64,000 nt of DNA, taken from UHGV virus genome UHGV-0036853, one strand, 5' to 3'. Under the pieces are notes generated by a model. The model was not told where the DNA came from. It searched no databases and was given only the letters and a program-made list of their open reading frames with translations. Within the stretch, counting starts at the first letter, position 1, and each line of letters opens with the position of its first letter. Shown here piece after piece: positions 853 to 64,000 of this stretch. The stretch comes from a virus. A program made the position numbers and the translations under genes.

Positions 853-914
853 GTGTTTTCCTATGTGGTTGTTATGCGAAAATGATAAGTAAGTACTTAT
901 ATATTTTCAAGAGA

Positions 915-939
915 TAAAAAAGGCGTCCTGTGGACGCCT
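915..939 (-). terminator. rho-independent terminator after the RecA-like gene
   Basis: Hairpin aggcgtcc-tgt-ggacgcct (921-939) followed on the minus strand by a T-run (A-run 915-920 on plus). Confidence 0.6.
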
Positions 940-944
940 TGTGT

Positions 945-2018: not shown

Positions 2019-2020
2019 GA

Positions 2021-3282: not shown

Positions 3283-3291
3283 GTAATGGGA

Positions 3292-4314: not shown

Positions 4315-4431
4315 GTGTTTCTCCTTGTTGTGATTTGGCCGATGGCGCTATGCGCGTTGGGCTTTCGTTCATTCGTGGCTCTTTCGAGCTGTTAAATGAT
4401 AGATCAGTACTTACTTATTATCTATCAAAAA

Positions 4432-4863
4432 TCAACGGGGAGTAATAAAGCGTTCAGAGCCTAATCGATCTAACTCAACGATGGCCATCTTCGACGCCTG
4501 AACGATCATGTCTCGGCGATGCGAAAAGGCGGCGACAGCATGTTTGTATATGTCTGCGATGTGCCGTGCTTCATCCAACTTCTGCCGTTTAGACAGATAC
4601 TGTGGGTTTGTTTTAACCTTAGCGTCCAGTACAGACTCGTTGAACTTAATGCCGTTCATACTCAAGTTCTTACGCTCTGTGTCGTATAGCTTTGCTTCAA
4701 CAGCTTCAAGGTTAAGTTTTGCCTCTGCGACACTTCTTTCTGCATGAGCGAGTTTTGAGCCATACTCCATTAAAAGGCGGGGTTGTCTACGCCAGACTTC
4801 CTCCAGATTGTCTCGGTCAAACTCGAGATCAGACATTATTTTCTCGTAAATATCGGTGATCAT
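4432..4863 (-). CDS. hypothetical coiled-coil protein
   Basis: 143-aa ORF, charged and helical. Confidence 0.4.
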   Translation of the reverse strand: MITDIYEKIMSDLEFDRDNLEEVWRRQPRLLMEYGSKLAHAERSVAEAKLNLEAVEAKLYDTERKNLSMNGIKFNESVLDAKVKTNPQYLSKRQKLDEARHIADIYKHAVAAFSHRRDMIVQASKMAIVELDRLGSERFITPR

Positions 4864-5239
4864 AGTGATATATCCATACTTATTTTTACGTATTAATTAT
4901 ATCAAAGAAAGGAGTGTTATTTTGTTTAGGAGAGAGTTTTATTAGGGTGCAATAGGTCGAATGTTACATGGTTCAGTGAGTCGTAAACTTTTGCTTCATG
5001 GAGTGGTTTTCAACCTGACAATTTTTTTGTTAATATCAATGAGCTACTTGCATTTTGCTCCGATGATGCAACGTTAGTTATTGAGTACCGCAGGACATGT
5101 GGGAATTAACGCCTGTGGAGAGAACGGTCAGATAGGATCACTCATGGAAGCAGGAACTCTTGTTCGTTAGTACATAGAGAATGTCAATACTGAAATTGAT
5201 TCGTAACTGCTCTTTTTCTATATAGTTGAGGATATTACG

Positions 5240-5572
5240 GTGAAAAAAGTATTAGGTGCTATTTTTGGTGGTTTGCTTCTTCTGCCAGTTGTAAGCAATG
5301 CAGCGGATGCACAAAAAGCCGTCGACAATAAAAAACCTGTTAACGCTTGGACCTGTGAAGATTTCTTGGCTGTGGACGAATCTTTCCAGCCTACAGTTGT
5401 AGGTTTTGCTGATGCTCTGAACAAGAAAGGCAAACCCGAAGATGCTGTTTTAGATATTCAGGGGGTTGCTACTGTAACTCCTGCGGTCATTCAGGCTTGC
5501 ACTCAGGATAAAAAAGCCAGCTTTAAAGATAAAGTTAAAGCCGAATGGGACAAAATTAAGAAAGATCTATAA
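5240..5572 (+). CDS. hdeA: periplasmic acid-stress chaperone HdeA
   Basis: 110 aa; signal peptide; near-colinear match to E. coli HdeA as I recall it (CEDFLAVDESFQP, VTPA..QACTQDK, EWDKIKKD), roughly 85 percent identical. Confidence 0.9.
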   Translation: MKKVLGAIFGGLLLLPVVSNAADAQKAVDNKKPVNAWTCEDFLAVDESFQPTVVGFADALNKKGKPEDAVLDIQGVATVTPAVIQACTQDKKASFKDKVKAEWDKIKKDL

Positions 5573-5646
5573 TTCATAGAGTACGTTTTATCGTATTCTT
5601 ATTGAATATTGAGCGAGTAAATCTCCTGTTAGGATGTTTTTCTTGA

Positions 5647-5985
5647 ATGGGGTGTAAAATGACAGTTTCATCTCTACGTAAGGCCATGATTTTTTTAGGT
5701 GCAGTAGCTGCTCTTTCGCTGGTGAATGCACAATCTGTGTTGGCTGCCGGTGGTTCAGCTAATGATATGACTTGTCAGGAATTTATTGACCTGAATCCAA
5801 AAGCGATGACGCCAGTTGCTTGGTGGATGCTCCATGAGAAAACAGTATATAAAGGCGGTGATACTGTAACTCTGACTGAAACGGATCAGACTCAGATTCC
5901 TGAAGTGGTTGAATACTGCAAGAAAAACCCACAAAAAAACTTGTATACCTTCAAAGATAAATTGGCAAATGTCCTGCCTAATTAA
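5647..5985 (+). CDS. hdeB: periplasmic acid-stress chaperone HdeB
   Basis: 112 aa; signal peptide then DMTCQEFIDLNPKAMTPVAWWMLHE..VYKGGDTVTL..EYCKKNPQKNLYTFK, matching E. coli HdeB as recalled; start could be the second ATG at 5659. Confidence 0.85.
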   Translation: MGCKMTVSSLRKAMIFLGAVAALSLVNAQSVLAAGGSANDMTCQEFIDLNPKAMTPVAWWMLHEKTVYKGGDTVTLTETDQTQIPEVVEYCKKNPQKNLYTFKDKLANVLPN

Positions 5986-5990
5986 CTAAT

Positions 5991-6017
5991 AAAACCCGCC
6001 AAATGGCGGGTTTTTTA
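5991..6017. terminator. bidirectional rho-independent terminator (hdeB on plus, dnaE-like on minus)
   Basis: Hairpin cccgccaaatggcggg flanked by an A-run and a T-run. Confidence 0.65.
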
Positions 6018-9000
6018 CTATGTCTTAATAGTTTCTGCTACGTCGGCTAATATCGCTTCTAGTCGTTCTCCCTCTTCAGGTCTGAAGTAAAGAATGTTGG
6101 GGTTAAACCCGTAAAAGACAGTAACGTCAAGGTCTGGAAGATACTCCTTCCTGCCGACTAAATCGGATGGCTTGTTTTTGTTGTTAAACATTGCCGTTGC
6201 CCGGCTGCCACACGTCAGCACATAGGTCGGACGCACCAGATTGATCTCTTCACGCATAAAGTCGGTGAACTGGCCGATCTCGTCTTTGGTGTAGTCCTTT
6301 TCTTTGTCTTTCACCTTTTTGCAAACGCCTGTGACATAGAGATCGCCCATGCGCAAATCCCCAGCCGTCAACAGCTTGGCCTTAAAATCGTCGTATCCGT
6401 TTTCCATAAAGTAACCGGTTCGAGCATCATTGCCGTTCGCATTGTCCAGAATGATCATGATTTTCGGCTTAATACCAATGCTGGGGCGGATTAGTTCATC
6501 ACCCAAGCCCATTTCAGCCGCCATCCGTGTCATGAGCACGTTAATCTCAGCCGAACGTTTGGGGTTCATCTCAAACGGACGTGAGGCTTTAACTGCATCT
6601 ATGACAAGGTTTCCCATCAATTCAGCCTGGTCGCGGAGGCGCTCTGGATCAGTTGCTGGCAGACTACCTGGCTCGATGGATGCAAACGCCCCTACTTTTT
6701 GCAGCGATTCGCGCACTCGACTATTACAGGCACGTTTCTCGACAGCTTCTTCGAATTGCGCAAGTGATTCGAATTTGCCGCCAACCTTTTCTCGCGCTCT
6801 CATGATGGCCAGGCAGCCATTCTCAGAACACCCTTTCACAGCAGAGAAGGGCGCATACAGCACCTGGCTACCATCTTCAAGCGTGCGGATCTCGATTCGG
6901 TTAGATGACACGTTAACGTCTGGTGGCAATACGCGAATACCATAGGTCAGCGCATCTTTAACCAGCCCCTGGTGTTTATCTTCGCCAAGAATAGTGAGAG
7001 CAGCAGCGAAAAACTCTGCGGGATAATGAGTTTTCAACCACATAGATTGATAACTGATTAAGGAGTAAGCAACAGAGTGTGATTTGTTGAACTGGTAGGC
7101 ACCATTCTTTTCGAATGCGGTCCAGATCTCCTTCGCTTTCATCTCTGATAGCCCTGGATGTGACGCTGTAACGCGTACTGCGTTTATAGGTAGTTTTGCG
7201 CCGTACTCAAGTGCCTCTTCGACAGTTTTCAGAGTTCCGTCTTCGCATTTAAAATGTTCCGCACGGTGAATGCGCTGTGTAGTGCCATCTTCCAGCTCAA
7301 CGTCTATCCAGCCAGCTTGAGCCTGAACGATGAACTTCTCGCCCATGCTCTTCATTTTTTCCATGTCTTTTTTGCCGATCGCTTTACGAACGCCGTCAGC
7401 TTCAGCCATTGTGAAGCCAGCAAGCAATCGAGTCGCGTTCATCGTCTGTTCCTGATAGAGAATCACGCCATTTGTTTCTGCGGTAAGTTCATCAAGAACG
7501 GGGTGTAATGATTCCGGCGTCATAAAGCCTTTGGCGACAGAAACATAATCATCCAACATGCCTGACTGAATTGGTCCCGGCCGGAAGAGCGCAGTCGTAG
7601 CAACGACCGTTTTAAAGCTCATTGGCTCAATTCCACCACCTAAATCTTTAAGCAGCTTGCGCATTGGGCCTGATTCAAGCTGGAAAACACCTTGAGTGTA
7701 CCCAGCAGCAAAACCATCCAGCACCTTGCGATCTTCAAGAGAAATGGCATCAAGATTGATATCTTCACCTCTGTTCTCTTTTATGTAGCGTTTTGCACTA
7801 TCGAGCAAATCGAGAGTTGCTAGGCCAAGCACGTCCAGCTTAATTAGGCCCATAGCCTCGCAGTAACGCTTGTCAAATGCGATACAACGCGCGTCACCAC
7901 GTCGTTCAACCGGTGTACGTTCTGTCAGAGGAACACCTGCTACGATCATCCCTGCCGCATGTCTACCAAAGCCACGCATAAGGCTTTGTAACTTGCAGGC
8001 TGCATTGAATGCATCAGGGTATTTTGTCGCGTATTTGTCGAGACTTGCCAGTTGTTCGCGCAGCTCCTCCAATGGAAGGCTATCATCCTCGACGTTCTTC
8101 AGTTCTTTTGATACCGCCATATCTGCGGACTCCACACCATAAATACGAGCGGTGTCACGTAGTGCAGAGGCCGCGCCCAGGTAGGTGAAGTTCGGAATGC
8201 CTGCAACGTAATCTTCGCCGTAGCGTTCATTCAGATACTCGATCACCTCATGGCGACGTGCCTGGCTGAAGTCCAAGTCCGCATCTGGCAAGTCGAGACG
8301 CTCAGGGTTGATGAAACGCTCAAACAGAAGACCGTGACGGATTGGGTCGACGTTGGTTATGCCTATGCACCACGCCACCAGAGAACCGGCAGAGGAACCA
8401 CGACCAGGCCCAACGGGAATGCCAGTTTCACGACTATGATTCATCAGATCGCGCACCATCAGGAAGTAACCACAGAATCCCAGGCGAGTAAGCGTGTCCA
8501 TTTCGTACTTTAGCCGCTCAACATAAACCCTGTTCTCAGAAGCTGGTGGTGTGTAGCCAAACTCTTTTGTGGTAAGACGTTTACGCAGCCCTGCAACAGC
8601 CAGTTTCATCAGCGTTGCAGGTTCGTCGTCTGCCATCTTGGGCAGTGCTGGTGGCAATTCATGCCAGCGCCATGTACAGGCTTCGATAATGGCGTCCTGC
8701 GTTGTTGAGGCCATTGCAGCTGTTACCGGCACATCCATGCGAACGGAGAAGGCTTTAAGCGCCTCAAGGAGATGGCGGCGACCATTGACGGCGTTATCTC
8801 GCTGGTGGGGGATACGCAGACGATGCGGCTGGTCGATTTTGATGTTGTTCGTAACCATGTGCGCAATGTCTTTAATGTCTGCATCGTCGATCGATTCGTA
8901 ATAAGCGGGATAAAACGCTACTGGCTCTATTTTCAGTGCGCTGGCGACTTTCATCGCCCGGAAGTTAATCTGGTCGTAGAATGGGGTAGGGTGCGGATAA

Positions 9001-9536
9001 ACCACACTATAGAAGTTGTCTTTTCCACCCGCTGTAATCAGTGTGCTTATAATTTTTGCAAAATCGTTGCGTTGGAACACGCTACCGATGTCGGAAGTGA
9101 GCAGGATGATGTTGCCTTTGGCATATGTAGAAACCAACTGTTCGAGCGAGAGACGCGGTACAAAGTAGAACTGTTCTCGTGTGTTGGCCACCGTCATTAG
9201 TTCGCAGATGTCGCGATATCCTTGCTCATTTTTAATTAGAGCGGTAAACGAGTAGTTACGTCCTCGCTCTAATGATTCCATACATCCCTTAGACTCTTTA
9301 GCAAGTTTAGCCCGGTACTCGTATGTGGGATCATCAACGATATTTAGTTTCACACCACAAATAACCGCCATGTCGTCACCAGCGGCACGTTGTAGTGGAA
9401 TAACACTCGCAATATTCATGCTATCTGCTGAAATTACAGCGGTGTAGCCAGCTTCTCTGGCAATCTTCACCGCGTTTTCCGCTTTTAACGCCGACTCCCC
9501 AAGTGAGAAGTCAGTTCGAACCATCAGTGCCTTCAT
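6018..9536 (-). CDS. DNA polymerase III alpha subunit homolog (DnaE-type replicative polymerase)
   Basis: 1172 aa; PHP-like N-terminus, catalytic region with LDLPDADLDF (PDxDxDF-type motif), C-terminal OB-like region. Confidence 0.85.
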   Translation of the reverse strand: MKALMVRTDFSLGESALKAENAVKIAREAGYTAVISADSMNIASVIPLQRAAGDDMAVICGVKLNIVDDPTYEYRAKLAKESKGCMESLERGRNYSFTALIKNEQGYRDICELMTVANTREQFYFVPRLSLEQLVSTYAKGNIILLTSDIGSVFQRNDFAKIISTLITAGGKDNFYSVVYPHPTPFYDQINFRAMKVASALKIEPVAFYPAYYESIDDADIKDIAHMVTNNIKIDQPHRLRIPHQRDNAVNGRRHLLEALKAFSVRMDVPVTAAMASTTQDAIIEACTWRWHELPPALPKMADDEPATLMKLAVAGLRKRLTTKEFGYTPPASENRVYVERLKYEMDTLTRLGFCGYFLMVRDLMNHSRETGIPVGPGRGSSAGSLVAWCIGITNVDPIRHGLLFERFINPERLDLPDADLDFSQARRHEVIEYLNERYGEDYVAGIPNFTYLGAASALRDTARIYGVESADMAVSKELKNVEDDSLPLEELREQLASLDKYATKYPDAFNAACKLQSLMRGFGRHAAGMIVAGVPLTERTPVERRGDARCIAFDKRYCEAMGLIKLDVLGLATLDLLDSAKRYIKENRGEDINLDAISLEDRKVLDGFAAGYTQGVFQLESGPMRKLLKDLGGGIEPMSFKTVVATTALFRPGPIQSGMLDDYVSVAKGFMTPESLHPVLDELTAETNGVILYQEQTMNATRLLAGFTMAEADGVRKAIGKKDMEKMKSMGEKFIVQAQAGWIDVELEDGTTQRIHRAEHFKCEDGTLKTVEEALEYGAKLPINAVRVTASHPGLSEMKAKEIWTAFEKNGAYQFNKSHSVAYSLISYQSMWLKTHYPAEFFAAALTILGEDKHQGLVKDALTYGIRVLPPDVNVSSNRIEIRTLEDGSQVLYAPFSAVKGCSENGCLAIMRAREKVGGKFESLAQFEEAVEKRACNSRVRESLQKVGAFASIEPGSLPATDPERLRDQAELMGNLVIDAVKASRPFEMNPKRSAEINVLMTRMAAEMGLGDELIRPSIGIKPKIMIILDNANGNDARTGYFMENGYDDFKAKLLTAGDLRMGDLYVTGVCKKVKDKEKDYTKDEIGQFTDFMREEINLVRPTYVLTCGSRATAMFNNKNKPSDLVGRKEYLPDLDVTVFYGFNPNILYFRPEEGERLEAILADVAETIKT

Positions 9537-9720
9537 GTGTTTTTACCTTTCTGGTTTTTTTGATTTTGTCATTGGGGAAGCCTACGAACTTCCCATGCAT
9601 CGAAATCGCAACTTCTTTTGCTGATTGGTGACAATCGGGCTTGTCTGGACACACCAGACAAGCCTTACCAGTTTCAGAAGCAGCGATAAGAGAGCCGAAA
9701 CATCCTTTACGCACGATCAA
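9511..9720 (-). CDS. small Cys-rich protein, possible zinc ribbon
   Basis: 69-aa ORF with CLVCPDKPDCH between the cobS-like and dnaE-like genes; overlaps the dnaE start. Confidence 0.3.
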   Translation of the reverse strand: MIVRKGCFGSLIAASETGKACLVCPDKPDCHQSAKEVAISMHGKFVGFPNDKIKKTRKVKTHEGTDGSN

Positions 9721-24832: not shown

Positions 24833-24875
24833 GTGCTTTCCTTTGTTTTTTAAACAAATTGTTTTCTAGTATTAG

Positions 24876-25818: not shown

Positions 25819-26178
25819 TCAGCCTTTTTTCATGAGTTCTCGCTTGATTTCATCGGTACGCATCGTTACATCGGCAGCTGTGATCGCCTCGTTAAGTTTC
25901 ACGATGTCCTCGATTTCCTGCGGTGTCTTCTCCGCAAGATGGAAAATAGCAGCACGAATCACATCAGAGCGGGTGAATTTCTCGAAGCGAGGGATGAACT
26001 TCATCATCTCCAGCAGTTCGAAGTATTCGTCTTCCAGTGACATTGTGCGGCTTTTAATTTTCTCTTTGCCACGAGTCGGGCGTCCCTGTGGTCTGACTGG
26101 TTGGCGCAAAGGAGTTGTGTTCTTAGCCGGTGCATCAGGCTCTTTGCGCTTTGCTAGGTCACCCATTTTCATGGACAT
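25819..26178 (-). CDS. small partition protein (ParG/ParB-like centromere-binding candidate)
   Basis: 119-aa basic ORF immediately downstream of parA with overlapping stop/start. Confidence 0.45.
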   Translation of the reverse strand: MSMKMGDLAKRKEPDAPAKNTTPLRQPVRPQGRPTRGKEKIKSRTMSLEDEYFELLEMMKFIPRFEKFTRSDVIRAAIFHLAEKTPQEIEDIVKLNEAITAADVTMRTDEIKRELMKKG

Positions 26179-26846: not shown

Positions 26847-26980
26847 TGGAGAGTTCCCTTTGCGTATATAATTATCGTCTGAAACAACTTGTTTTCTTAT
26901 ATGTGATATAGCCTAAATGCCTACGGCTGTGGTGTAAAGGTTTAATGATAGGTACATAGATTTGGTAAGGACTTAATAAC

Positions 26981-40020: not shown

Positions 40021-40832
40021 GTCTCATCTCCCTTGAGCAAGTCTTTGTGACGCAAGTGATGCGTCGTATGTTTCTGATACATCCCGCCGTAATAAGCACG
40101 ACAACTTAGGCGGTCGATCTGGTGATGAAGAATCATTCCATCACCGATATAAACCGCGCAGTGGTCAGGCATTTTCCCGTATTGGATAAAGAAGATGTCC
40201 CCACGTTGAGGCTCTGTTCCGGGTGCAAGCCGTACCAATCCTTCGTTTCGGTAGTTCTGGTCGAGAATGTCGTTATCGCCGGTGTACCATGATGGAATAT
40301 GCAGGTGTGCGTTCGGGTTTAGTTCGACGTTAAACTCACGCTTCAAATAGTCCCGACACAACATCCAGCAATCGAATACGCCAAATACATACGGTCTGCC
40401 CAGGTATGGCATTTCGAAACCATCAGGAGTGATCACATTCATCTCGCTAAAATGGAAAGGGGCATCTCCCTCAACATTCTTGCGAATAGCCAGAATCATC
40501 CACGGAACTTCCGTCGCTTCGCAGCCTGCACGATCGGCATCAGATGCTTCTGCTGATTCATCAGTATGTGAATGCCAGATTGCGATAACATCACCCGCAT
40601 CCTCTGCCGCCATAATGTCGTCAACGTGCATTACAAAAGTGTTCTGCGGGTTCTCCGAAACATTCCGCGCTTCCATAAAGCGATATTTGTCGCCATTAGT
40701 TCTAACCAGAAAGCCACACGCTTCATTAGGGTAGCGATTTATGGCGCAGAGATAGATTTGCTGCATAACGTCAGAGCCAAGCTCAGGGATTGCTTTATTA
40801 CCCATACCGCGTAGCTCCAATAAATCCGCCAA
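40008..40832 (-). CDS. tail tip assembly protein K-like (JAB/MPN plus NlpC/P60)
   Basis: 274 aa; JAMM-type motif IWHSHTDESAEASDAD; conserved order L-K-I-J. Confidence 0.75.
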   Translation of the reverse strand: MADLLELRGMGNKAIPELGSDVMQQIYLCAINRYPNEACGFLVRTNGDKYRFMEARNVSENPQNTFVMHVDDIMAAEDAGDVIAIWHSHTDESAEASDADRAGCEATEVPWMILAIRKNVEGDAPFHFSEMNVITPDGFEMPYLGRPYVFGVFDCWMLCRDYLKREFNVELNPNAHLHIPSWYTGDNDILDQNYRNEGLVRLAPGTEPQRGDIFFIQYGKMPDHCAVYIGDGMILHHQIDRLSCRAYYGGMYQKHTTHHLRHKDLLKGDETCLS

Positions 40833-48846: not shown

Positions 48847-48940
48847 AGATCCCTCTAAAACACACAGAGCGCGTCCATGCGCTCTAAAACAACTTGTTTA
48901 CTGCATCTGCTAACCAACTTGTTTTCTGGGGTGTTTAATT

Positions 48941-49042: not shown

Positions 49043-49309
49043 TTACATCACCAGTAACTTCGCTTTGGCTCGACCTAAAGTGGTTAACCCAAGAGTCCGG
49101 CGGTGATAGCGATTGTCACTGCGTTGGCGCGTATGCCCTTTCTCCACCAGCCCCTTTTTTATCAGAGCGCGAATTGAGAACTGGATACTTTGCTTGGTTG
49201 TCTTGTACGGCAAAACTTCAAGCAATTCGTCCAGATCAAGTAGATGACCTCGCTCATAACCGAGATTGAGCGTTTTGATGATGTCCTTTTGTTTATCGGT
49301 TAACGTCAT
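49043..49309 (-). CDS. small basic DNA-binding protein (winged-helix-like)
   Basis: 88-aa ORF, Lys/Arg-rich. Confidence 0.4.
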   Translation of the reverse strand: MTLTDKQKDIIKTLNLGYERGHLLDLDELLEVLPYKTTKQSIQFSIRALIKKGLVEKGHTRQRSDNRYHRRTLGLTTLGRAKAKLLVM

Positions 49310-53860: not shown

Positions 53861-54139
53861 ATGAGCGAAAAGAAAACAACTTATTGTCAGGTGGCATTGT
53901 CTGATAAGGCCAATGACAAACTTGGAAAGTTTCAAATGAAACTAAAAGAAAAAAACATCAAAATGTCTAAGGCTGAAGTTATCAATACCATCCTAGAGGC
54001 GATGACGATGGCTGAGTTTGATAAAGTTTCCTCTGCCGTTGGAGTCTCTGCTAAGGCTCGTGAGAAAATCATGCGCATCTATGAAAACTCTAATATGACA
54101 AAGGAAGACCTAGAACAAATTCTAAGCAAACTGCCATAA
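53861..54139 (+). CDS. hypothetical small protein coupled to the helicase
   Basis: 92-aa ORF starting 3 nt after the helicase stop. Confidence 0.4.
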   Translation: MSEKKTTYCQVALSDKANDKLGKFQMKLKEKNIKMSKAEVINTILEAMTMAEFDKVSSAVGVSAKAREKIMRIYENSNMTKEDLEQILSKLP

Positions 54140-54963: not shown

Positions 54964-55383
54964 ATGAAAGTAACAAACCTAATTATTTTAACACTAGCCA
55001 CATCACTAATTGGGTGTTCATCTTCATCTATATCTGTTTCAAAGGCAAAGTATGCACCTCAAAGCAGAATATTTAAATATCAAACACCACATGAGTCTAG
55101 TCTAACAATAGTTAGAGACAAAGGGCTGGTTGGTTCTGGATGTAACGCTTCCATATTCATCAATGGAGAAACGGCAGCAAAATTGGAACCTGGTGAAAAA
55201 GCAACTTTCTATCTTAATGAAGGAGATTGGATCGTTGGGACATCAATTGAAAGTTCAGGTCTTTGCGCATTTAACCCCTCTAGGATGGAGCGAGAAATAA
55301 AACTAAAGCAAGGCGACGCGAAAACATATCGGGTTTTCACTACCTGGGATGGTACAATGGATATATTGCCAACCACTTTATAA
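54964..55383 (+). CDS. lipoprotein (AT-rich island)
   Basis: 139 aa; signal with lipobox LIGC. Confidence 0.55.
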   Translation: MKVTNLIILTLATSLIGCSSSSISVSKAKYAPQSRIFKYQTPHESSLTIVRDKGLVGSGCNASIFINGETAAKLEPGEKATFYLNEGDWIVGTSIESSGLCAFNPSRMEREIKLKQGDAKTYRVFTTWDGTMDILPTTL

Positions 55384-55387
55384 TGAT

Positions 55388-55912
55388 ATGACGACGAAAG
55401 ACATCACCTACGGTGTGCCAGCAGAAGTCTGGCCTCGAGATTACACTAACGTTGAAAAACTACTGATGTTCTGGCGCAGAGAACAAATTCCTGTAAGGGC
55501 CACTCTCGAAGATGGTCAGGCGTTTTGCATGTACGTTTATGGCCTCATGCCATCTCGTAACAAAGTTGACCTTTGCCCAGCCCCTTTTGACAAAGAAAAT
55601 CGTATAAGGCTCCCAATTGAACGCATTAGTACAATTGAATCAGGTGTGGTTGACAGTATCGCTCACGATTTCAAAGGTCGACTAACAGTTCACCCTGATT
55701 ATGTCGATAATCGGCCATCACGCCGCGATTTTTTTGCAATTTGCAACCAAGCCTACAAAGCAAACAAATCTATAAGGGTGTACATGGCGGATGGCCGTGA
55801 AATTGAGGGGGTGTCAGCAGGCGCAGATGCTTGTCAGGTTACACTACGTGTCGAGAACGGTAGAAAAATAGTTGTTTTGTTCGATTGGGTTGAACGAATT
55901 TTGCCTTTTTGA
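55388..55912 (+). CDS. hypothetical protein (AT-rich island)
   Basis: Start set to ATG at 55388 (MTTKD...) just after the upstream stop; track ORF begins at 55349. Confidence 0.5.
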   Translation: MTTKDITYGVPAEVWPRDYTNVEKLLMFWRREQIPVRATLEDGQAFCMYVYGLMPSRNKVDLCPAPFDKENRIRLPIERISTIESGVVDSIAHDFKGRLTVHPDYVDNRPSRRDFFAICNQAYKANKSIRVYMADGREIEGVSAGADACQVTLRVENGRKIVVLFDWVERILPF

Positions 55913-58150: not shown

Positions 58151-58266
58151 CAGCCGTTTCCCGAAAAAATCCTGGCCGTTTCCCGTCGGCTCATGAATAC
58201 GTTCCTCGCCGTTTCTGAAAATTTCCCTGCGGCAGCTGGTGGCTATAGAGAAAGGGCCGTTTCTGG
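58151..58266. repeat. iteron-like direct repeats GCCGTTTC(C/T), four copies
   Basis: cagccgtttcccg (58151), tggccgtttcccg (58173), cgccgtttctg (58207), gggccgtttctgg (58254). Confidence 0.5.
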
Positions 58267-58278: not shown

Positions 58279-58761
58279 TTACACGCCATCAAGGATGTGG
58301 ATGCGGTTGCTTGTGTATACATTCAACATAAAGTTAGCGCAAAACAGTTTCCATGTATCAACGCCAGCGGTATACGTAATGTTTTTGCATTTAATTGCAT
58401 TGTTGGCGATCCGCATCCCCTGCGATACTGCTTCATCGTCGGAAAATTTGAACGACGATTGAGTTTTAATCCAGACAGAAATCTGCGTAGCGAACTCAAT
58501 CAGCTTGGACTGGCAGAATCGCCCGGAGCGCACCGGAAAGACGAACGTTCCGAATCCAGAATTTACCACATACGCTTTCTCAAATACCCGCGAGTAACGA
58601 CGATTGCCAATGATGTCGCGTGCAATAATGCATTTTTCTTGTGCTGACAGTTCTACCGTCTCATTGTCGCGCCATGCACCAAGTACTCGTTTTTCAATGT
58701 CAGAGAACGTTACAGCGATATTGCCATGTGCGGGTGCGTTTACAGTAGCGATAAAATTCAT
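58279..58761 (-). CDS. hypothetical protein (right-end small-gene array)
   Basis: 160 aa; RBS AAGGA; class II motif at 58781-58816 upstream. Confidence 0.5.
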   Translation of the reverse strand: MNFIATVNAPAHGNIAVTFSDIEKRVLGAWRDNETVELSAQEKCIIARDIIGNRRYSRVFEKAYVVNSGFGTFVFPVRSGRFCQSKLIEFATQISVWIKTQSSFKFSDDEAVSQGMRIANNAIKCKNITYTAGVDTWKLFCANFMLNVYTSNRIHILDGV

Positions 58762-58965
58762 GATTAATTCCTTATAGTAAATAACAAATTGTTTTCTTGT
58801 TGGTGTTAATTATCGTTGTACGAATAAGGCGTCAAAGTGGAAAGTTGCGGTAGCCGGACGGGAACAGGTGGGTTTGTCGGTTGCCTGGAGGTAAGAGGTT
58901 GGTGTTTTTAGCCTGCGGGAAACAGGATGGTCATTTAAGGCCACCAGCATTGGTGACCTTATTCT

Positions 58966-59253
58966 TCAGTGGAGCAGACCGATGTCGATGGTATCCCCTG
59001 AATCATCCACACGGATCATCAGCATGGCGAAGGCGTTTAGTGGATAGCTTGCGTGCCATTCAGGGAAGCGGTCATCTCGCATGAAGTCGGCAATGTCGTA
59101 AACGATGCCCTCAAAGTGAAAGAATCTCGTGCTTACCTGCTCGTCATATTCCACATGATCCATTTCTTGCTGTTCTGTTTCCGGCAAGTCCAGCCATGAT
59201 TCGAGTAATACATTTTGTGCTTTGGTGGTAATGGTGAAATCAGTCATGAGCAT
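58966..59253 (-). CDS. hypothetical acidic small protein
   Basis: Start set to an internal ATG (MLMTDF...) because the class II motif (59262-59300) lies inside the longer track ORF. Confidence 0.4.
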   Translation of the reverse strand: MLMTDFTITTKAQNVLLESWLDLPETEQQEMDHVEYDEQVSTRFFHFEGIVYDIADFMRDDRFPEWHASYPLNAFAMLMIRVDDSGDTIDIGLLH

Positions 59254-59582
59254 ATCCTCACTGCGTAAACATGTTGTTTTCTTGTTGGTGTAATTATCGC
59301 AGTGTAGATAAGGCATAAAAGAAGTTAATACAGGCTGAATACACAAGAAAGGTTCTCGAAGTTGATAGCCAGGTTTCAAACTAACCTTCGGTTATTAAAA
59401 GTCATTTAAGACCACCAATGCTGGTGGCCTTAATAATTATCGCCCGATTACGCTAAGGATCTTTTCCTCAACTGATTTGTTGTTGCGACTAAACTGCCTT
59501 GCGTATCTAATGACAGAAGAGGCGTTTCGCTTTCTGACCATTTCGGCTCTTTCCTTCAGGCGTTTCTTGAAATCGCCCATAT

Positions 59583-59999
59583 TTACCACCAGGCGCAGAA
59601 CGTCAGTCTGTTATTGTGAAAGTCGTGGTTCCTGATCAGGTCTTCCACAAGTTTTTTCAGCTTGTCCACGTCATGCCAGTAACCTTCATCGTACTCCTGA
59701 CTGCCGAAGAAAAAACCTTCCCGGGTAGGCAAGTACTCTTCGCAATTACTTTCGTTTATGTGCATCAAATGAGCCTTCAGAAAACAAATGTCATTCATCG
59801 TTAATTCTAAAAGCTCACAATTTTCGACTTCACCTACGTTGCGCTCCATCCACCCAACGAGCGCATTGAACTTACGGAAGTAAGCAACCCGCTTTCTGGA
59901 TGCCTCATTATTCAGATCGTTTTTTGGCTGCGTCTCAATGTAAATATCAAGCCCCATGATGGTTTCCTTATTAAGTTGCTTCAGTGAAATCATTTTCAC
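59583..59999 (-). CDS. hypothetical protein
   Basis: 138-aa ORF (track start is GTG; ATG alternatives at 59993 and 59957); class II motif at 60008-60030. Confidence 0.45.
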   Translation of the reverse strand: MKMISLKQLNKETIMGLDIYIETQPKNDLNNEASRKRVAYFRKFNALVGWMERNVGEVENCELLELTMNDICFLKAHLMHINESNCEEYLPTREGFFFGSQEYDEGYWHDVDKLKKLVEDLIRNHDFHNNRLTFCAWW

Positions 60000-60074
60000 A
60001 AATCAGATAAGGCAGAAAACAAATTGTTATCGGGTATAAGAAAATGGCGCGGTTTACGCGCCATTTAAAGAGGA

Positions 60075-60470
60075 TTAAGCGAATACGCTTTCAGGGATTA
60101 AGGTGTCAGCAGGAATGCCGGAGGTAATACGCAGACCGTACTGACCAATCCAGGTGGTGCTGGTGTTCAGGCTGGAGGTGAATACGGAATTAACCATATT
60201 CATCATGGTTTCAAACACCTCTTCATCAACCTGGCGGAAGTAGTTCTCGATTTTCAGCAGCAGCGGGTCAGTTGCATCGAGAATGGACTGGTATTGAGTC
60301 GCGTACTCGCCGCCGGAGGCATCACCTTTACGCACGATCGTACTGGCCTGTACTTCGGCACCAGTTTCGGTGTTGTACGTAACAACGGTGATTTTTGCCA
60401 CATTCTTACCTTCGGCGGTTTCAGAGGCATAGTAAACATCAACTGTCAGTTTTTCGCGTTTAACGGTCAT
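60075..60470 (-). CDS. hypothetical protein
   Basis: 131 aa; RBS GGAGAG; class I motif at 60514-60530 upstream. Confidence 0.5.
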   Translation of the reverse strand: MTVKREKLTVDVYYASETAEGKNVAKITVVTYNTETGAEVQASTIVRKGDASGGEYATQYQSILDATDPLLLKIENYFRQVDEEVFETMMNMVNSVFTSSLNTSTTWIGQYGLRITSGIPADTLIPESVFA

Positions 60471-60534
60471 TTCACTCTCCGTAGTGTCTTGGTTATTTTT
60501 CTATTTTATAGTCGTAGGTATGTACTTACAATAC

Positions 60535-60561
60535 AAAAAAGCCCCGTAATGATGGCGGGGC
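60535..60561 (-). terminator. rho-independent terminator
   Basis: Hairpin gccccgtaatgatggcggggc with a T-run on the minus strand. Confidence 0.6.
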
Positions 60562-60596
60562 TGTCGTACTGTCGACTAATTACCACTTGCACATTA

Positions 60597-60908
60597 TCAG
60601 GCTATTGCCATCACTGATGCTCTCTGAATTTCTTGCTGGGCCACGCGGTTAACTTCCATCAAAGCCAGTTCGAGCTGATGTTCCGGCCACATTCTTTGAA
60701 ATGCCACCCAGCCTTTTCCACGCTGGCGACGAACATTCATTACATAACGAGTAAAGGTGTTTTTATCGAAAGACACCGCTGTTTCACGGAACAGACGAAT
60801 AGAGGTTCCATTGGCAACGATGTCCAGCAAAGTTAATTGAGCAACCAGCGCAGGCTTCTCTTTTCTCTTCTGGTCTTTGTCCAGACCAAGAACCAATGAT
60901 TTTTTCAT
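60597..60908 (-). CDS. hypothetical basic small protein
   Basis: Start set to MKKSL... with RBS GGAG; class II motif at 60915-60935. Confidence 0.45.
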   Translation of the reverse strand: MKKSLVLGLDKDQKRKEKPALVAQLTLLDIVANGTSIRLFRETAVSFDKNTFTRYVMNVRRQRGKGWVAFQRMWPEHQLELALMEVNRVAQQEIQRASVMAIA

Positions 60909-61062
60909 CACAACTCCGTAAACAACTTGTTTTCTCAATGGCGTAAATAATACCAGTGAGAAAACGGCTACAAAGCATATTGATCAGGTACATGAGCGAT
61001 ATGCAGGTTCTTCCCTGCGGCTACAGATGAAGTTAAGCCAGCATTGCTGGCTTTGGTTGGGT

Positions 61063-61392
61063 TTACTCGAATACTTCAAGAAACTCCTGAACATCCCAAT
61101 GCTGGACAAGGTGAAGATAGACCTTAGAAATCACGTCATTCTCGCTATCGCATGTGAAGTAGTACTTCTGGCTGCGGTTGTATGTGTCCACACAAAATTC
61201 GCTCATATCCATAAAGTCAGCATCTTCACCCATGTCGCAAATCATCAAAGCAGGTGCATCATCACGAGTCATCAGCTCAAGCACCCACCGCGAATTGATC
61301 AGAGTGGAAGACCAACCTTCTAACTCATAAAACTGATCAAACTCTTTTTGAGTCAATTTCTTGATTTGGTTGATGTCGATATGTGCAAACAT
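61063..61392 (-). CDS. hypothetical acidic small protein
   Basis: Start set to MFAHIDIN... with RBS AAGGA; class II motif at 61411-61445. Confidence 0.45.
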   Translation of the reverse strand: MFAHIDINQIKKLTQKEFDQFYELEGWSSTLINSRWVLELMTRDDAPALMICDMGEDADFMDMSEFCVDTYNRSQKYYFTCDSENDVISKVYLHLVQHWDVQEFLEVFE

Positions 61393-61780
61393 AAAGCAAT
61401 CCTTAAACAACATGTTTTCTTATTGGTGTTATTATCGCAATAACACACAGGCGAAAAAGGATTTTATTCCGGTGAATGTGGTTTTGGCAGTGAGTTTTCA
61501 GGTTCAGTACCGAGTACAATTTTTACATTATTCTGATTTAGTGGCCGAAGATGGCTGGTGGGCAGAATAATCCTCTCCCCGAAAACCTACTGAAATCGAT
61601 TGTGACCCGCTGGCTGTCTGGCACAATTACGCTGTAGCTGGGCATTCAGAGGGAATCCAGCGGTAAGTAAGTCCGCCTGCACGTGAGCGTCTCTCTCCTT
61701 CCCGCACATTACAGGTGGGCAGCCGCAACTCTCCCTCACGCTATACCGGTACGCCACCGTTCCTGAACCGGCATCGAACC

Positions 61781-61900
61781 TTTTCCCGAAATCCACACAG
61801 GCAACTCGACCGTTTCCCTGAAAACCTCCAGCCGTTCCCCGAAGGCAACCCAGCCGTTTCTGTAGCGGGATGCAGCCTTTTCCCTGTATGGACCGAAGGC
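61781..61900. repeat. degenerate ~22-bp tandem repeats CC(G/T)TTTCCC(T)GAA, about six copies
   Basis: ccttttcccgaaa, ccgtttccctgaaaa, ccgttccccgaagg, ccgtttctgtagcg, ccttttccctgtatg read directly. Confidence 0.5.
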
Positions 61901-62965
61901 TGACCGTAGGGGTGTTACGGGGGATAAAATCAGGAGTTGAATAAATACGAAAAAGGAGGCGACACCCCTCCTTCCCTCCCCACTTATACATACCTGGCTT
62001 CTTCGCTATACATGTTGTGTTTTATTCGTGTTTTATCTGTCTCAACCTCTCTATAGGCGTTAATGCTCACTCCTTCCAGAGCGTTCTATACGGCGACTAT
62101 TCCTGTTGGTGAATTGGGTGTGTTGTTCTCTCTGTCGGTGTAAATGGTTTCGTTCGTTTTGCGGTGGTTCTTCTGTGGGGGTGTTCTCGTCGTTTTGGTG
62201 ATTGTTCTTCTCCGTGTATGGAGTAATGGCAGGTGGGCGATTCCTTTCGTTATTGTGTTTGAGTTGTTTGTCTGGAGTGCGTGAAGGGCTTTTGTAGTTA
62301 TTCGTGTATTGGGTAATGGCGTTTCCCGTGATTGTTATGTTTCGTGTCTTTTGGGATTGAGAGAATCCTTGCGGTTACAGGCTTCGTTGGGTTTTCAGTG
62401 ATTCTGGTGTTCTTCGCTGTTTGGGGAATGGCGTGTCGTGGGTATCGCGCGTGTGAATGTTTTCGGATTGCCTGTGAAAGTTAGGTTGGTTGTCCGGTAG
62501 CCTGGGAAGAAGAGGTGGGTCTTTTCGGTGGCCTGCCATAAAGAGGTTGGTTGTTTTTGGGAATGGCATGTGTGTTATTTAGTTGTTTTGTTATGCCTGA
62601 AAATAAGTTGTTTATATGGTTGTGTAACGCAACGGGAGCGATTTTGAGCGTGTGTTTTTGTTGGTAGTGTGTTGAGTTGTCTGTGGTGAAAATTGGACGC
62701 TGTGGAGCTGTCTGCTGCGTAGGATTACGGGTATAAGAAGTGATGTGTGAAAACGTCAATTTTTTAGACCAAATCGGGTGAAAGCGTTGACGTTTCGTTG
62801 ATCTGTTATTCAGTTGTTTTCTTGTTTGTATAAACAACTATAACCTATTGATATTTAAGGATGTGATTGCAGGCATGGAAGGGGAGTAGTGGCGATCAAC
62901 GGATTCTTATAGAAAAGAATCAAATTGTGACCGCCATTATCAACGGTTTGAATATGTTTTCAGAT

Positions 62966-63265
62966 TTACCAGTTCCAGCACTCTAGCCCTTCAACGACTG
63001 GTGCACCACAATCAAAATGTACAGAGTCAAAGCCTACATCAAGTACCTTCTGAATGTTAGCAATCGCGCCTTCGGATATACCATATCGACGCAAGTTGTC
63101 TTTCCAGACATCATCCTGTAACCCGGCGTGGACAATACAACCGCCGTCAATTTGCGAAACCCAATCCAGCTCATTGCTTGCGATCATGAACCGGCGAGCA
63201 TCTTCCTCTGATGTATGAGATGAACTGATCAATGCCACCTGGTAGGCTTGGGTAATGTTCAACAT
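62966..63265 (-). CDS. hypothetical small protein
   Basis: Start set to first ATG (MLNITQ...) with RBS GGAG; class II motif copies at 63279-63310 and 63325-63345. Confidence 0.45.
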   Translation of the reverse strand: MLNITQAYQVALISSSHTSEEDARRFMIASNELDWVSQIDGGCIVHAGLQDDVWKDNLRRYGISEGAIANIQKVLDVGFDSVHFDCGAPVVEGLECWNW

Positions 63266-63381
63266 TTCAACCACTCCGAAACAATTTGTTTTCTTATATG
63301 GCTTATTATCTCAATTAACAAAAGTCAGAAAACAAATTGTTTTAGGCATATGTAAATCAGAAGGGATTGCGTCTATATGAA

Positions 63382-63425: not shown

Positions 63426-64000
63426 TTACTTAACCTGGTGGCCTGGTTTAGCGCCAGCATCCGGGCTTAACAGGAAGATATCTTTCCCGCCAGGGCCAGC
63501 AGCCATCACCATGCCTTCGGAGATACCGAAGCGCATTTTACGCGGAGCCAGGTTAGCCACCATAATGGTGTGACGACCAATCAGTGCCTGTGGGTCTGGA
63601 TAAGCAGAACGGATGCCTGAGAAGACATTGCGTTTTTCACCACCGAGATCCAGTGTCAGACGCAACAGTTTGTCAGAACCTTCAACAAACTCCGCGTTTT
63701 CAATCAGCGCCACACGCAGGTCAACTTTGGCGAAGTCGTCAAAGGTGATGGTTTCCTGAATCGGGTCGTCAGCCAGTGGGCCAGTTACCGGTGCGGCTGT
63801 GGCTTTCACTTCTTCTTTGGATGCTTCCACCAGTGCTTCCACCTGTTTCATATCGATACGGTTATACAGTGCTTTGAACGGATTCACTTTATGGCTCAAC
63901 AGCGGTTGCTGAATACCATCCCAGGTCAGTTCTGTATTCAGGAATGCTTCTGCACGTTCAGTCAGTTTCGGCAGTACCGGTTTCAGGTAAGTCATCAGCA
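63426..64000 (-). CDS. metG: methionyl-tRNA synthetase, C-terminal portion (gene continues beyond the right edge)
   Basis: Translation ...[122 protein letters not shown] matches the E. coli MetG C-terminus as recalled. Confidence 0.85.

What the first reader, a model, noticed from the sequence alone, without database searches (positions are those of the whole stretch)
58279..63345. Right-end array of small unknown genes, each behind a copy of one palindromic promoter/operator motif
At least seven copies of a ~30-bp motif with core AAGAAAACAAnTTGTTT, often extended as CGATAATTAACACCAACAAGAAAACAA, sit 10-40 nt upstream of the RBS of minus-strand small ORFs (58781-58816, 59262-59300, 60008-60030, 60915-60935, 61411-61445, 62805-62840, 63279-63310, 63325-63345). 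The motif also precedes parA (26881-26910), the helicase operon (24851-24870), the CobT-like gene (13174-13192) and occurs twice before the small terminase (48888-48930). Several products are small and acidic, as expected for DNA mimics or anti-restriction proteins. A shared palindromic site implies co-regulation by one dimeric regulator.
Basis: seen in the sequence. Interest (0 to 1): 0.55.

Follow-up and report, generated by a model that had tools for sequence, protein, structure and literature searches.

The report
Shared operator motif of phage-plasmid promoters
A near-palindromic 17-20 bp DNA site sits at a fixed position just after the -10 element of about ten promoters in this SSU5-like phage-plasmid, and in its Enterobacteriaceae relatives; it is most likely the binding site of one still-unidentified regulator that keeps these genes silent while the phage lives as a plasmid.

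Summary
The window is an SSU5/pHCM2-like phage-plasmid, about 95-97% identical to Escherichia phage Cyrano. The motif AGAAAACAA-n-TTGTTTA has 12 strong copies in the window, against about 0.2 expected, and all are intergenic (P 4e-12). Cyrano has 17 copies, SSU5 20 and a diverged Klebsiella plasmid 20, many of them at orthologous promoters. The anatomy is strict. A -10-like hexamer, mostly GATAAT and often preceded by TGn, ends 20-21 nt before the motif centre, which puts that centre at about +14, just upstream of the ribosome-binding site. Some promoters carry a second, inverted copy exactly 51 bp upstream (about -38), and others a tandem copy at 25 bp. The arms show no compensatory changes and the leaders have no RNA structure, so this is a double-stranded DNA protein site and not a hairpin. 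In published RNA-seq of a Cyrano lysogen, 14 of 15 motif-preceded genes are near background; parA is the exception. The best reading is a dispersed repressor-operator regulon, with logic like P1 C1 operators, mycobacteriophage stoperators or RK2 KorA/KorB. The regulator was not identified; candidates are the ParA-partner protein, an 88-aa protein that may be a winged helix, and a FljA-like protein. Only 5 of 8 small genes have their own forward copy. All the small genes are of unknown function, and the anti-restriction idea remains untested.

The parts
63326..63342 (+). Inverted (upstream, about -38) motif copy of the promoter of gene 62966-63265. It follows the terminator hairpin of the MetRS gene.
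   Evidence: score 33.3. Its centre lies 51 bp from the forward copy.
63305..63310 (-). -10-like hexamer GATAAT preceded by TGn (extended -10), 9 nt upstream of the forward motif.
63279..63295 (-). Forward motif copy AAGAAAACAAATTGTTT, centre about +14, directly before the SD of gene 62966-63265.
   Evidence: (score 32.6).
62966..63265 (-). Small gene A: 99 aa, pI 4.4, DUF5983 C-terminal domain.
   Evidence: PF19419, E 1e-10; phrog_5003.
62807..62823 (-). Degenerate copy with only the AGAAAACAA arm intact. It is orthologous to a full site in relatives and points into the CA-rich non-coding strand.
   Evidence: score 12.1; L029 site 2949.
61431..61436 (-). -10-like GATAAT with TGn, 9 nt upstream of the motif.
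61405..61421 (-). Forward motif copy before gene B.
   Evidence: score 32.5.
61063..61392 (-). Small gene B: 109 aa, pI 4.3, unknown function.
   Evidence: (phrog_7645).
60947..60952 (-). -10-like TATTAT with TGn, 10 nt upstream of the motif.
60920..60936 (-). Forward motif copy before gene C.
   Evidence: score 32.4.
60597..60908 (-). Small gene C: 103 aa, pI 10.5. The model is a four-stranded sheet plus a long helix with no recognisable DNA-binding fold.
60075..60470 (-). Small gene D: 131 aa, pI 4.5. It has NO motif copy and has its own TTGTAA-17-TAAAAT promoter-like site at 60531-60503.
60013..60029 (+). Inverted motif copy upstream of gene E. At the position a forward copy would occupy there is only a degenerate remnant. 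An extended -10 TGTGAAAAT lies between the two.
   Evidence: (score 30.0).
59583..59957 (-). Small gene E: 124 aa, pI 5.05, unknown function.
   Evidence: (phrog_7971).
59437..59580 (-). Small gene F: 47 aa, pI 11.3. It overlaps the end of gene E and has no motif of its own.
   Evidence: CYRAN_109.
59293..59298 (-). -10-like GATAAT with TGn, 9 nt upstream of the motif.
59267..59283 (-). Forward motif copy before gene G.
   Evidence: score 28.2.
58966..59250 (-). Small gene G: 94 aa, pI 4.1, unknown function.
   Evidence: (phrog_1845).
58809..58814 (-). -10-like GATAAT, 10 nt upstream of the motif, with TTGACG 15 nt further upstream.
58782..58798 (-). Forward motif copy before gene H.
   Evidence: score 27.3.
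58279..58761 (-). Gene H: 160 aa, pI 9.2, unknown function.
   Evidence: (phrog_1641).
48887..48928 (-). Two tandem motif copies, centres 25 bp apart, in the leader of the small-terminase (late) operon. They are followed by a GC hairpin plus a T-run.
26882..26898 (-). Perfect motif copy upstream of parA; it has the highest score in the window.
   Evidence: (score 34.1).
24852..24868 (-). Motif copy before the DnaB-like helicase/primase operon.
   Evidence: score 28.3.
13172..13192 (-). Motif copy before the CobT-like gene, after a -10-like TACATT with TGn.
25819..26178 (-). Candidate binder 1: a 119-aa protein encoded right after the 222-aa ParA. It has a basic, disordered N-terminus; the stretches KSRTMS and FTRSDVIRAAI are invariant across clades that are only 48% identical overall.
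   Evidence: Fold and profile tests were inconclusive.
49043..49309 (-). Candidate binder 2: an 88-aa protein. The winged-helix reading rests on inspection of its sequence alone. The gene lies just upstream of the terminase promoter.
   Evidence: 78-100% identity in motif-bearing clades. Pfam gave no hit for it.
55349..55912 (+). Candidate binder 3: a FljA-like protein (Pfam Flag1_repress).
   Evidence: (E 1.3e-83).

Best explanation
The motif is the operator of a dispersed regulon in an SSU5-like phage-plasmid. Each unit reads, on the gene strand: an optional terminator of the preceding gene; an optional inverted copy centred about -38; a sigma-70 -10 hexamer (mostly GATAAT), often with an upstream TG; 9-10 nt; AGAAAACAA-n-TTGTTTA centred about +14; the Shine-Dalgarno sequence; and the ATG. 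A sequence-specific DNA-binding protein, probably encoded by the element and binding as a dimer or higher oligomer, occupies the site over the transcription start region. Where present, it also occupies the second site exactly 51 bp (about five helical turns) upstream or 25 bp alongside. Binding blocks initiation or early elongation by host RNA polymerase. This keeps the accessory small genes, the replication genes (helicase, CobT/DNA polymerase) and the late (terminase) operon silent in the plasmid-prophage state, and leaves the parA operon autoregulated at a low level. Shown here: the existence of the motif, its enrichment, its strictly intergenic position, the fixed geometry, conservation across diverged relatives, independent evolution of the two arms, the absence of RNA structure, and silence of the downstream genes in a lysogen. 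Inferred: the position of the transcription start, repression as opposed to activation, and that the binder is encoded by the phage. The identity of the binder is unresolved.
For: For family-wide conservation at orthologous promoters, sites scoring at least 18 number 17 in Cyrano and 20 in SSU5 (scans), and there are 20 in Klebsiella plasmid CP027615, whose proteins are only 32-78% identical. Sites are also dense in metagenomic SSU5-like contigs. Across 200 unique contexts, information content peaks on the motif and on a hexamer ending 20-21 nt upstream, while the flanks are uninformative. Of 83 contexts with that hexamer, 51 carry TGn. In the array, all 5 forward promoters have a -10-like hexamer (GATAAT in four, TATTAT in one) and 4 of the 5 also have TGn. 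Neighbouring sites are spaced exactly 51 bp apart (21 cases, 19 of them inverted pairs) or 25 bp apart (4 cases), with no other spacing below 150 bp. A 25-bp tandem also occurs at a different promoter in CP027615. None of 91 deviations within the 6-bp arms is compensated, and the leader RNAs fold no better than shuffles (z -1.0 to +0.8). In LF82 (Cyrano) lysogen RNA-seq, 14 of 15 motif-proximal genes lie at 0.6-2.6 times the background median of 9.8, and parA is at 50. Units without the motif (CYRAN_26/27, 43, 45, 50/51, 63, 98, 99, 117) are at 90-7000 (PMC9928086 S1 table). The CI-like HTH repressor's own control region carries different repeats (GGTAAGnnCTTACC) and no motif.
Against: No transcription start is mapped. 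The generic promoter scan finds none of these as canonical -35/-10 promoters. Helicase, parA and terS lack a clear -10 at the standard offset. Most prophage genes are silent in a lysogen anyway, so the RNA-seq agrees with repression but does not discriminate. The site is asymmetric, and in the Moellerella relative only the AAGAAAACAA arm occurs, so the simple 'symmetric dimer on a palindrome' picture is incomplete. No binder could be assigned: the ParA-partner model has low confidence with no significant fold or profile match, and gene C has no DNA-binding fold.
Confidence: 0.6

Rival explanations
1. Positive control. The motif is the binding site of an activator, or a promoter-specificity element, needed to fire these promoters during lytic growth. 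The copy at about -38 would substitute for the missing -35, and the genes would be silent in lysogens because the activator is absent.
For: The -35 hexamers are poor (only 7 of 83 contexts reach 4 of 6). The inverted copy sits where class II activators bind. In diverged relatives the upstream copy is the better conserved of the two. The late operon also carries the motif. The candidate 88-aa protein and the ParB-like proteins are silent in lysogens.
Against: Most copies are single and lie downstream of the -10, at about +14, a position typical of repressors and not of activators. Of the contexts with the hexamer, 61% have an extended -10, which by established knowledge needs neither a -35 nor an activator. 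parA, which is expressed in the lysogen, carries the best copy.
Confidence: 0.13
2. RNA-level element. The motif acts in the 5' leader of the mRNAs as a translational operator for an RNA-binding repressor, for example the FljA-like protein (chromosomal FljA blocks fliC mRNA translation) or a RegA-like factor. Alternatively it is an A/U-rich translation enhancer.
For: Forward copies lie in the predicted leader directly before the SD. A FljA-family gene is a core gene of these elements and is absent from the one SSU5-like plasmid examined that lacks the palindrome. FljA-type regulators are reported to prevent translation of fliC mRNA (PMC2652032).
Against: Inverted copies at about -38 are not in that transcript, yet they keep exact 51-bp phasing. 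Two-fold symmetry is not needed for recognition of single-stranded RNA, and there is no RNA structure or covariation. The E. coli fliC leader, a known FljA target, has no motif-like sequence. The FljA-like protein is only 32% identical in the Klebsiella clade, which keeps the identical motif.
Confidence: 0.1
3. Host-factor site. A chromosomal nucleoid or regulatory protein of Enterobacteriaceae binds the motif, and the element exploits it.
For: No binder encoded by the element was identified. The palindrome is present in elements of Escherichia, Salmonella, Klebsiella and Yersinia pestis and absent from the Morganellaceae (Moellerella) relative.
Against: From my own knowledge, the sequence matches no E. 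coli regulator consensus that I can name; this was not tested against a database. The half-site persists in Moellerella.
Confidence: 0.08
4. Cassette-boundary repeat. The conserved roughly 50-bp promoter-leader block serves mainly as homology for recombinational shuffling of small-gene cassettes, like the promoter-early stem-loops of T4-type phages, with no dedicated binding protein.
For: Each small gene is an autonomous terminator-promoter-gene unit, and gene content of the array differs between relatives.
Against: The same motif precedes core single-copy operons (parA, helicase, cobT, nrdB, terS) at orthologous positions in genomes where the flanks have diverged. Exact 51-bp and 25-bp phasing and position-specific conservation are not explained by a need for homology.
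Confidence: 0.05

Closest known systems
Phage P1 C1 repressor operators (plasmid prophage with many dispersed operators)
   Same: One conserved site of about 17 bp is scattered over a roughly 100-kb plasmid prophage at the promoters of many separate operons. The genes are silent in the lysogen, and the site is partly asymmetric.
   Different: The sequence is unrelated (the P1 operator is ATTGCTCTAATAAATTT, from my own knowledge). No C1 homologue was looked for or seen. Here the site sits at a fixed +14 position, and fixed 51-bp inverted pairs flank the -10. The late operon carries the site directly.
Mycobacteriophage L5/Bxb1 'stoperators' (cluster A immunity repressor sites)
   Same: There are tens of copies of a short site in short intergenic gaps along the whole genome, mostly in one orientation relative to transcription and lying within the transcribed leader. 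They could act on elongating as well as initiating polymerase.
   Different: Stoperators are 13-14 bp and fully asymmetric, bound by a monomeric repressor, and most are not attached to a promoter (from my own knowledge). Here almost every copy is tied to a -10 hexamer at a fixed distance, and the core is two-fold symmetric.
Global plasmid regulons: RK2/IncP KorA-KorB-TrbA operators, pSM19035 omega
   Same: A 12-13 bp palindrome (6-1-6 geometry, like the KorB operator) is repeated at many promoters of one replicon. In those systems the partition protein (KorB, omega) doubles as a global repressor, which is the logic proposed here for the ParA-partner candidate.
   Different: The sequence differs. 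KorB is a large ParB-family CTPase acting at a distance, and omega binds heptad arrays. No experimental link exists here, and the element is a tailed phage.
T4-type 'promoter early stem-loop' (PeSL) cassette boundaries
   Same: A repeated promoter-containing block precedes many small genes of unknown function in a plastic region.
   Different: No stem-loop is involved, and the motif also controls conserved core operons.

Membership tests
Dispersed repressor-operator regulon of a temperate phage or plasmid (P1 C1 / stoperator / KorAB type) | Many copies of one specific site, far above chance, spread over the replicon | tested here: met
   12 sites in 64 kb against about 0.2 expected. There are 17 in Cyrano and 20 in SSU5 and 20 in CP027615.
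Dispersed repressor-operator regulon of a temperate phage or plasmid (P1 C1 / stoperator / KorAB type) | Sites lie in intergenic space at or next to promoters, in a constant position relative to promoter elements | tested here: met
   12 of 12 sites are intergenic (P 4e-12). The -10-like hexamer ends 20-21 nt before the centre in 81 of 200 contexts, with no other comparable peak on that side. No start sites are mapped.
Dispersed repressor-operator regulon of a temperate phage or plasmid (P1 C1 / stoperator / KorAB type) | Downstream genes are repressed in the lysogen | tested here: inconclusive
   14 of 15 motif-proximal Cyrano genes are near background in LF82 RNA-seq, but so are most prophage genes.
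Dispersed repressor-operator regulon of a temperate phage or plasmid (P1 C1 / stoperator / KorAB type) | A cognate repressor encoded by the element binds the site | not testable with these tools
   There are only candidates.
Sigma-70 extended -10 promoter | A -10 hexamer close to TATAAT with TG one base upstream | tested here: met
   All 5 forward promoters of the array have a -10-like hexamer (GATAAT in four, TATTAT in one), and 4 of the 5 have TGn. Of 83 family-wide contexts with the hexamer, 51 have TGn.
Sigma-70 canonical promoter | A -35 hexamer (at least 4 of 6) at 16-18 bp spacing | tested here: not met
   None of the motif promoters is reported by the consensus scan. Only 7 of 83 contexts qualify.
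RNA or DNA hairpin element (structured leader, ssDNA promoter, terminator) | A stable fold and compensatory changes between the arms | tested here: not met
   Leader folds have z -1.0 to +0.8 against shuffles. None of 91 arm deviations is compensated.
FljA (Flag1_repress) regulator as the binder | Protein family membership of gene 55349-55912 | tested here: met
   PF03614, E 1.3e-83. The gene is also present in Cyrano and SSU5.
FljA (Flag1_repress) regulator as the binder | A known FljA target (the fliC leader) contains the motif | tested here: not met
   The E. coli K-12 fliC upstream region has no hit scoring 10 or more. The Salmonella leader was not examined.
Type Ib partition centromere-binding protein (ribbon-helix-helix) as the binder | A small gene immediately downstream of a roughly 220-aa Walker-type ParA that lacks an N-terminal DNA-binding domain | tested here: met
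   ParA is 222 aa (the Pfam hits start at residue 2) and the 119-aa ORF abuts it.
Type Ib partition centromere-binding protein (ribbon-helix-helix) as the binder | Ribbon-helix-helix fold | tested here: inconclusive
Anti-restriction / DNA-mimic proteins (ArdA, Ocr, KlcA and similar) for the small genes | Strongly acidic small protein | tested here: met
   This holds for 5 of 8 products (pI 4.1-5.05); the other 3 are basic.
Anti-restriction / DNA-mimic proteins (ArdA, Ocr, KlcA and similar) for the small genes | Homology to a described family | tested here: not met
   The Pfam scan gave only DUF5983_C for one protein. The PHROG families are all of unknown function, and all public names are 'hypothetical'. 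Structures of the acidic proteins were not predicted.

The most novel reading that the evidence does not exclude
The small ParA-partner protein of the element's type Ib-like partition cassette may be the binder. The plasmid's segregation protein would then double as the global silencer of some 15-20 phage promoters: accessory, replication and late. The promoter-embedded sites, densest in the small-gene array, would also serve as dispersed centromeres. This would put KorB/omega-style logic inside a tailed phage and tie lysogeny maintenance directly to plasmid partition. It would act alongside the CI-like switch, which has different operators.
Probability: 0.2. Interest if true: 0.7.

Novelty: new member of a known kind. 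Interest (0 to 1): 0.45.

Why it matters
SSU5/pHCM2-like phage-plasmids are very common in Escherichia, Klebsiella, Salmonella, Enterobacter and Yersinia pestis (pMT1); about 800 plasmid records hold their core genes. Some carry resistance genes. I found no description of how they control the choice between plasmid life and lytic growth in the papers I could search. A single operator with strict geometry at about 15-20 promoters gives a concrete handle on this. It defines the regulon, predicts which genes switch together, and supplies a bait sequence for identifying the master regulator. It also marks the small genes of unknown function as part of the same programme, which helps when searching them for anti-defence functions.

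Tried and rejected
1. RNA hairpin or structured leader: rejected, because there is no stable fold and no compensatory change.
2. Rfam families in 57.7-63.5 kb: none found.
3. Gene C (basic, best-scoring site upstream) as an autoregulated repressor: its model shows a beta-sheet plus a helix with no DNA-binding fold.
4. The CI-like HTH protein (window 13719-14105) as the binder: unlikely. Its own divergent control region has other repeats and no motif, and SSU5 lacks the gene yet keeps 20 sites. The SSU5 point is weak evidence, since SSU5 may be a recent deletion derivative.
5. FljA-like protein: the fliC leader of E. coli has no motif, and the protein is only 32% identical in a clade with an unchanged motif. 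It is kept only as a minor candidate because it is missing from the palindrome-less Moellerella plasmid.
6. The pMT1 comparison (8 sites, FljA-like gene present, ParA-partner absent) is, from my own knowledge, uninformative, because pMT1 is nearly identical to pHCM2 in the shared segments.
7. Fold and profile tests of the ParA partner against RHH proteins: not significant.
8. An exact-pattern scan of IMG/VR returned many chance hits as well as SSU5-like contigs; only loci with two or more sites were used.
9. Literature: no paper describing the motif was found. One 2026 preprint on a phage-plasmid promoter could not be opened, and one search was wasted on terms that were too loose.

Full report
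WHAT THE WINDOW IS. The right end of the window matches Escherichia phage Cyrano at 97% identity. [quoted passage not shown] The region also matches other SSU5-like phage-plasmids, at 72-80% for Klebsiella phages and Salmonella phage SSU5. A whole-window comparison shows that it is colinear with Cyrano, in reverse orientation and circularly permuted. It covers Cyrano 58349 down to 1 and then 108379 down to 92455, with local replacements and an 8.1-kb gap in the structural genes. All the 'small unknown genes' are annotated as hypothetical in Cyrano and PhiR41_1.

- The 17-mer with up to 2 mismatches occurs 14 times against 0.17 expected. The 9-bp arm AGAAAACAA occurs 13 times against 1.34 expected.
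- A weight matrix built from the copies finds 12 strong sites. All lie in the 11.3% of the window that a crude ORF map leaves non-coding (binomial P 4e-12).
- Forward copies have their centre 20-29 nt from the start codon of a minus-strand gene.
That stretch keeps only one arm, although it is the ortholog of a full site in relatives.

ANATOMY. The promoter regions were aligned on the gene strand and 200 unique site contexts from 52 SSU5-like sources were analysed.
- The conserved block is AGAAAACAA-n-TTGTTTA. The left arm is longer and better conserved than the right, and the central base is free.
- A -10-like hexamer ends 20-21 nt before the centre in 81 contexts. It is GATAAT in 45 of the 83 contexts where the hexamer ends 19-21 nt before the centre, and 61% of those 83 are preceded by TGn. 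Few have a -35.
- In the array, the five forward promoters carry GATAAT or TATTAT 9-10 nt upstream of the 17-mer, four of them with TGn.
- Assuming a start about 7 nt after the hexamer (established promoter geometry, not mapped here), the motif centre is at about +14 and the leader is only 30-40 nt: motif, then the Shine-Dalgarno sequence, then the ATG.
- Some promoters have a second, inverted copy. The centre-to-centre distance is exactly 51 bp in 21 of 21 such cases, 19 of them in the divergent orientation. That places the copy at about -38, right after the terminator hairpin of the preceding gene.
- The terminase leader has two tandem copies 25 bp apart. No other spacing below 150 bp occurs. 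A 25-bp tandem appears again at a different promoter in a Klebsiella relative.
- The generic consensus scan does not call any of these canonical promoters. I therefore describe them as extended -10 type and do not claim that they are strong.

DNA OR RNA? Two-fold symmetry could mean a hairpin, but it does not here.
- None of 91 departures from consensus within the 6-bp arms is matched by a complementary change in the other arm.
- The predicted leaders fold no better than shuffled sequences.
- Rfam finds nothing.
- The inverted copies lie outside the transcript they would regulate, yet they keep exact helical phasing.
This pattern is what a protein site on duplex DNA looks like.

CONSERVATION.
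- Cyrano has 17 strong sites (scan) and SSU5 has 20 (scan). Orthologous positions include terS (two sites), parA, helicase, cobT and nrdB, plus the small-gene array.
- Klebsiella plasmid CP027615 has proteins only 32-78% identical to the window's, yet it has 20 sites with an unchanged consensus.
- Y. pestis pMT1 keeps 8 sites in its pHCM2-like segments.
- Metagenomic SSU5-like contigs carry up to 9 sites per 11 kb. In that clade the upstream inverted copy is often the complete one, while the downstream position holds only the AGAAAACAA arm.
- A Moellerella SSU5-like plasmid has no full palindrome at all. It has only AAGAAAACAA half-sites at a few promoter-like positions, including parA.
The long arm is thus the older or more basic unit, and the tight palindrome is a feature of the Enterobacteriaceae lineages.

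EXPRESSION. The LF82 study gives per-gene RNA-seq for the Cyrano lysogen (PMC9928086, S1 table).
- The first gene after each of 15 motif promoters has 5.7-25.5 normalised reads, against a background median of 9.8. The exception is parA, at 50.
- Units without a motif are at 90-7000. These include the toxin-antitoxin pairs, CYRAN_43, the CI-like repressor CYRAN_45, repA, the S24 peptidase gene and the MinD-like gene.
- This fits repression of promoters that should not need an activator. It is not discriminating, because most prophage genes are silent.

WHO BINDS? Unresolved.
- The CI-like HTH repressor (window 13719-14105) has different repeats in its own control region and no motif there.
- Gene C, the basic protein behind the best array site, models as a sheet plus a helix with no DNA-binding fold.
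- The 119-aa protein encoded right after the 222-aa ParA is my first candidate. It is expressed in the lysogen (89 reads). The best motif copy lies in the parA promoter region, where type Ib partition proteins autoregulate (established knowledge). Its basic tail and the segments KSRTMS and FTRSDVIRAAI are invariant between clades that are 48% identical overall. The half-site survives at parA in Moellerella, where the protein's core is 45% identical. However, the model has low confidence, and fold and profile comparisons to ribbon-helix-helix proteins are not significant.
- The 88-aa protein upstream of the terminase promoter is 78-100% identical in the motif-bearing clades, but it is also 61% identical in Moellerella. 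Its winged-helix character is my reading of the sequence only; Pfam gave no hit.
- A FljA-family protein (Pfam E 1e-83) is a core gene of the group and is missing from Moellerella. Against it, the protein is only 32% identical in the Klebsiella clade, and the E. coli fliC leader has no motif. It may simply be a lysogenic-conversion gene acting on host flagellin.

THE SMALL GENES. Eight credible genes lie between 58279 and 63265.
- Five have their own forward copy (H, G, C, B, A). Gene E has only the inverted upstream copy. Gene F overlaps E. Gene D has no copy and has a separate promoter-like site.
- Five are acidic (pI 4.1-5.05) and three are basic.
- Pfam gives only DUF5983_C for gene A. The PHROG families are all of unknown function, and public records call them hypothetical.
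- Nothing supports or excludes anti-restriction activity.
- ORFs 61587-61991 and 62481-62837 lie in compositionally odd, non-coding-looking DNA (see the items noticed in passing).

COMPARISON WITH KNOWN SYSTEMS AND NOVELTY. The logic is that of P1 C1 operators, mycobacteriophage stoperators and the RK2 KorA/KorB or pSM19035 omega regulons: one site at many promoters of one replicon. The sequence, the fixed +14 placement, the 51-bp inverted pairing around the -10 and the 25-bp tandems are particular to this family. I found no description of them in the searchable literature. I therefore class the finding as a new member of a known kind, of moderate interest. It would become more interesting if the partition protein proves to be the global silencer.

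Noticed in passing
window 62000-62850: About 800 bp show extreme strand asymmetry: the + strand is G+T rich, with GC skew +0.42 to +0.53 and AT skew -0.39 to -0.61. The stretch has degenerate direct repeats of about 100 nt containing GGGnAATGGC and no Rfam match. It is 72% conserved with SSU5 and is present in diverged relatives, where motif promoters point into the CA-rich strand. ORF 62481-62837 (CYRAN_103) looks like a by-product of the composition. The region could be a long CA-rich non-coding transcript, a Rho-loading region or an origin.
   Followed up: partly
window 58153-58264 and 61809-61883: There are two clusters of four direct repeats GCCGTTTC(C/T). The spacing is a regular 22 bp in 61809-61883 and 22-48 bp in 58153-58264. 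They bracket most of the small-gene array (genes B to H). The same paired clusters occur in Cyrano (95335-95454 and 98955-99058) and SSU5 (91496-91593 and 95048-95151), and none lies near repA. They look like iterons or a centromere.
   Followed up: partly
window about 42700 (junction); Cyrano 6281-14377 is missing: Relative to Cyrano, the window lacks about 8.1 kb of structural genes, from the Ig-like head protein to part of the tape measure gene. This copy is probably defective as a phage.
   Followed up: no
window 55349-55912 (+): This gene is a FljA-family homologue ('repressor of phase-1 flagellin', Pfam E 1e-83). It is a core gene of about 830 SSU5-like plasmids, including Y. pestis pMT1. 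It may switch off host flagellin, or it may be a regulator of the element itself.
   Followed up: partly
window 13467-13719: The divergent control region between the CI-like HTH gene (13719-14105, +) and a 70-aa gene (13255-13467, -) carries GGTAAG-n2-CTTACC-type repeats. This is probably the separate operator set of the classical immunity switch.
   Followed up: no
window 48850-48885 (-): Between the two motif copies and the SD of the small-terminase gene there is a GC-rich hairpin (AGAGCGC-n6-GCGCTCT) followed by GTGTGTTTT. It is conserved in SSU5 and pMT1 and is a terminator-like structure in the late-operon leader, which suggests attenuation or antitermination control.
   Followed up: no
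window 63426-64000 (-) and Cyrano CYRAN_100: The element encodes a full-length methionyl-tRNA synthetase (2034 nt in Cyrano). Cyrano also has tRNA genes (Asn, Thr, Ser).
   Followed up: no
Cyrano 40268-40822 (CYRAN_43), near window 15400-16000: In the LF82 lysogen this 'hypothetical protein' region is by far the most abundant Cyrano transcript (about 7000 normalised reads against a median of 9.8). The window differs from Cyrano here. It may be a non-coding RNA or a moron.
   Followed up: no
L133-L135 (Moellerella plasmid pW18-2-b), site near 15444: Upstream of parA, two AAGAAAAC arms form a wide inverted repeat about 30 bp apart in place of the tight palindrome. A direct repeat AAATAACAAGGC (two copies) lies next to the SD. 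This may be a different operator layout for the same partition cassette.
   Followed up: partly
window 53871-53879 (+), 12396-12404 (-) and 59779-59787 (+): Three exact AGAAAACAA half-sites lie inside coding sequence. One is at the very start of the 92-aa gene that follows the UvsW-like helicase. They may be chance or functional.
   Followed up: no
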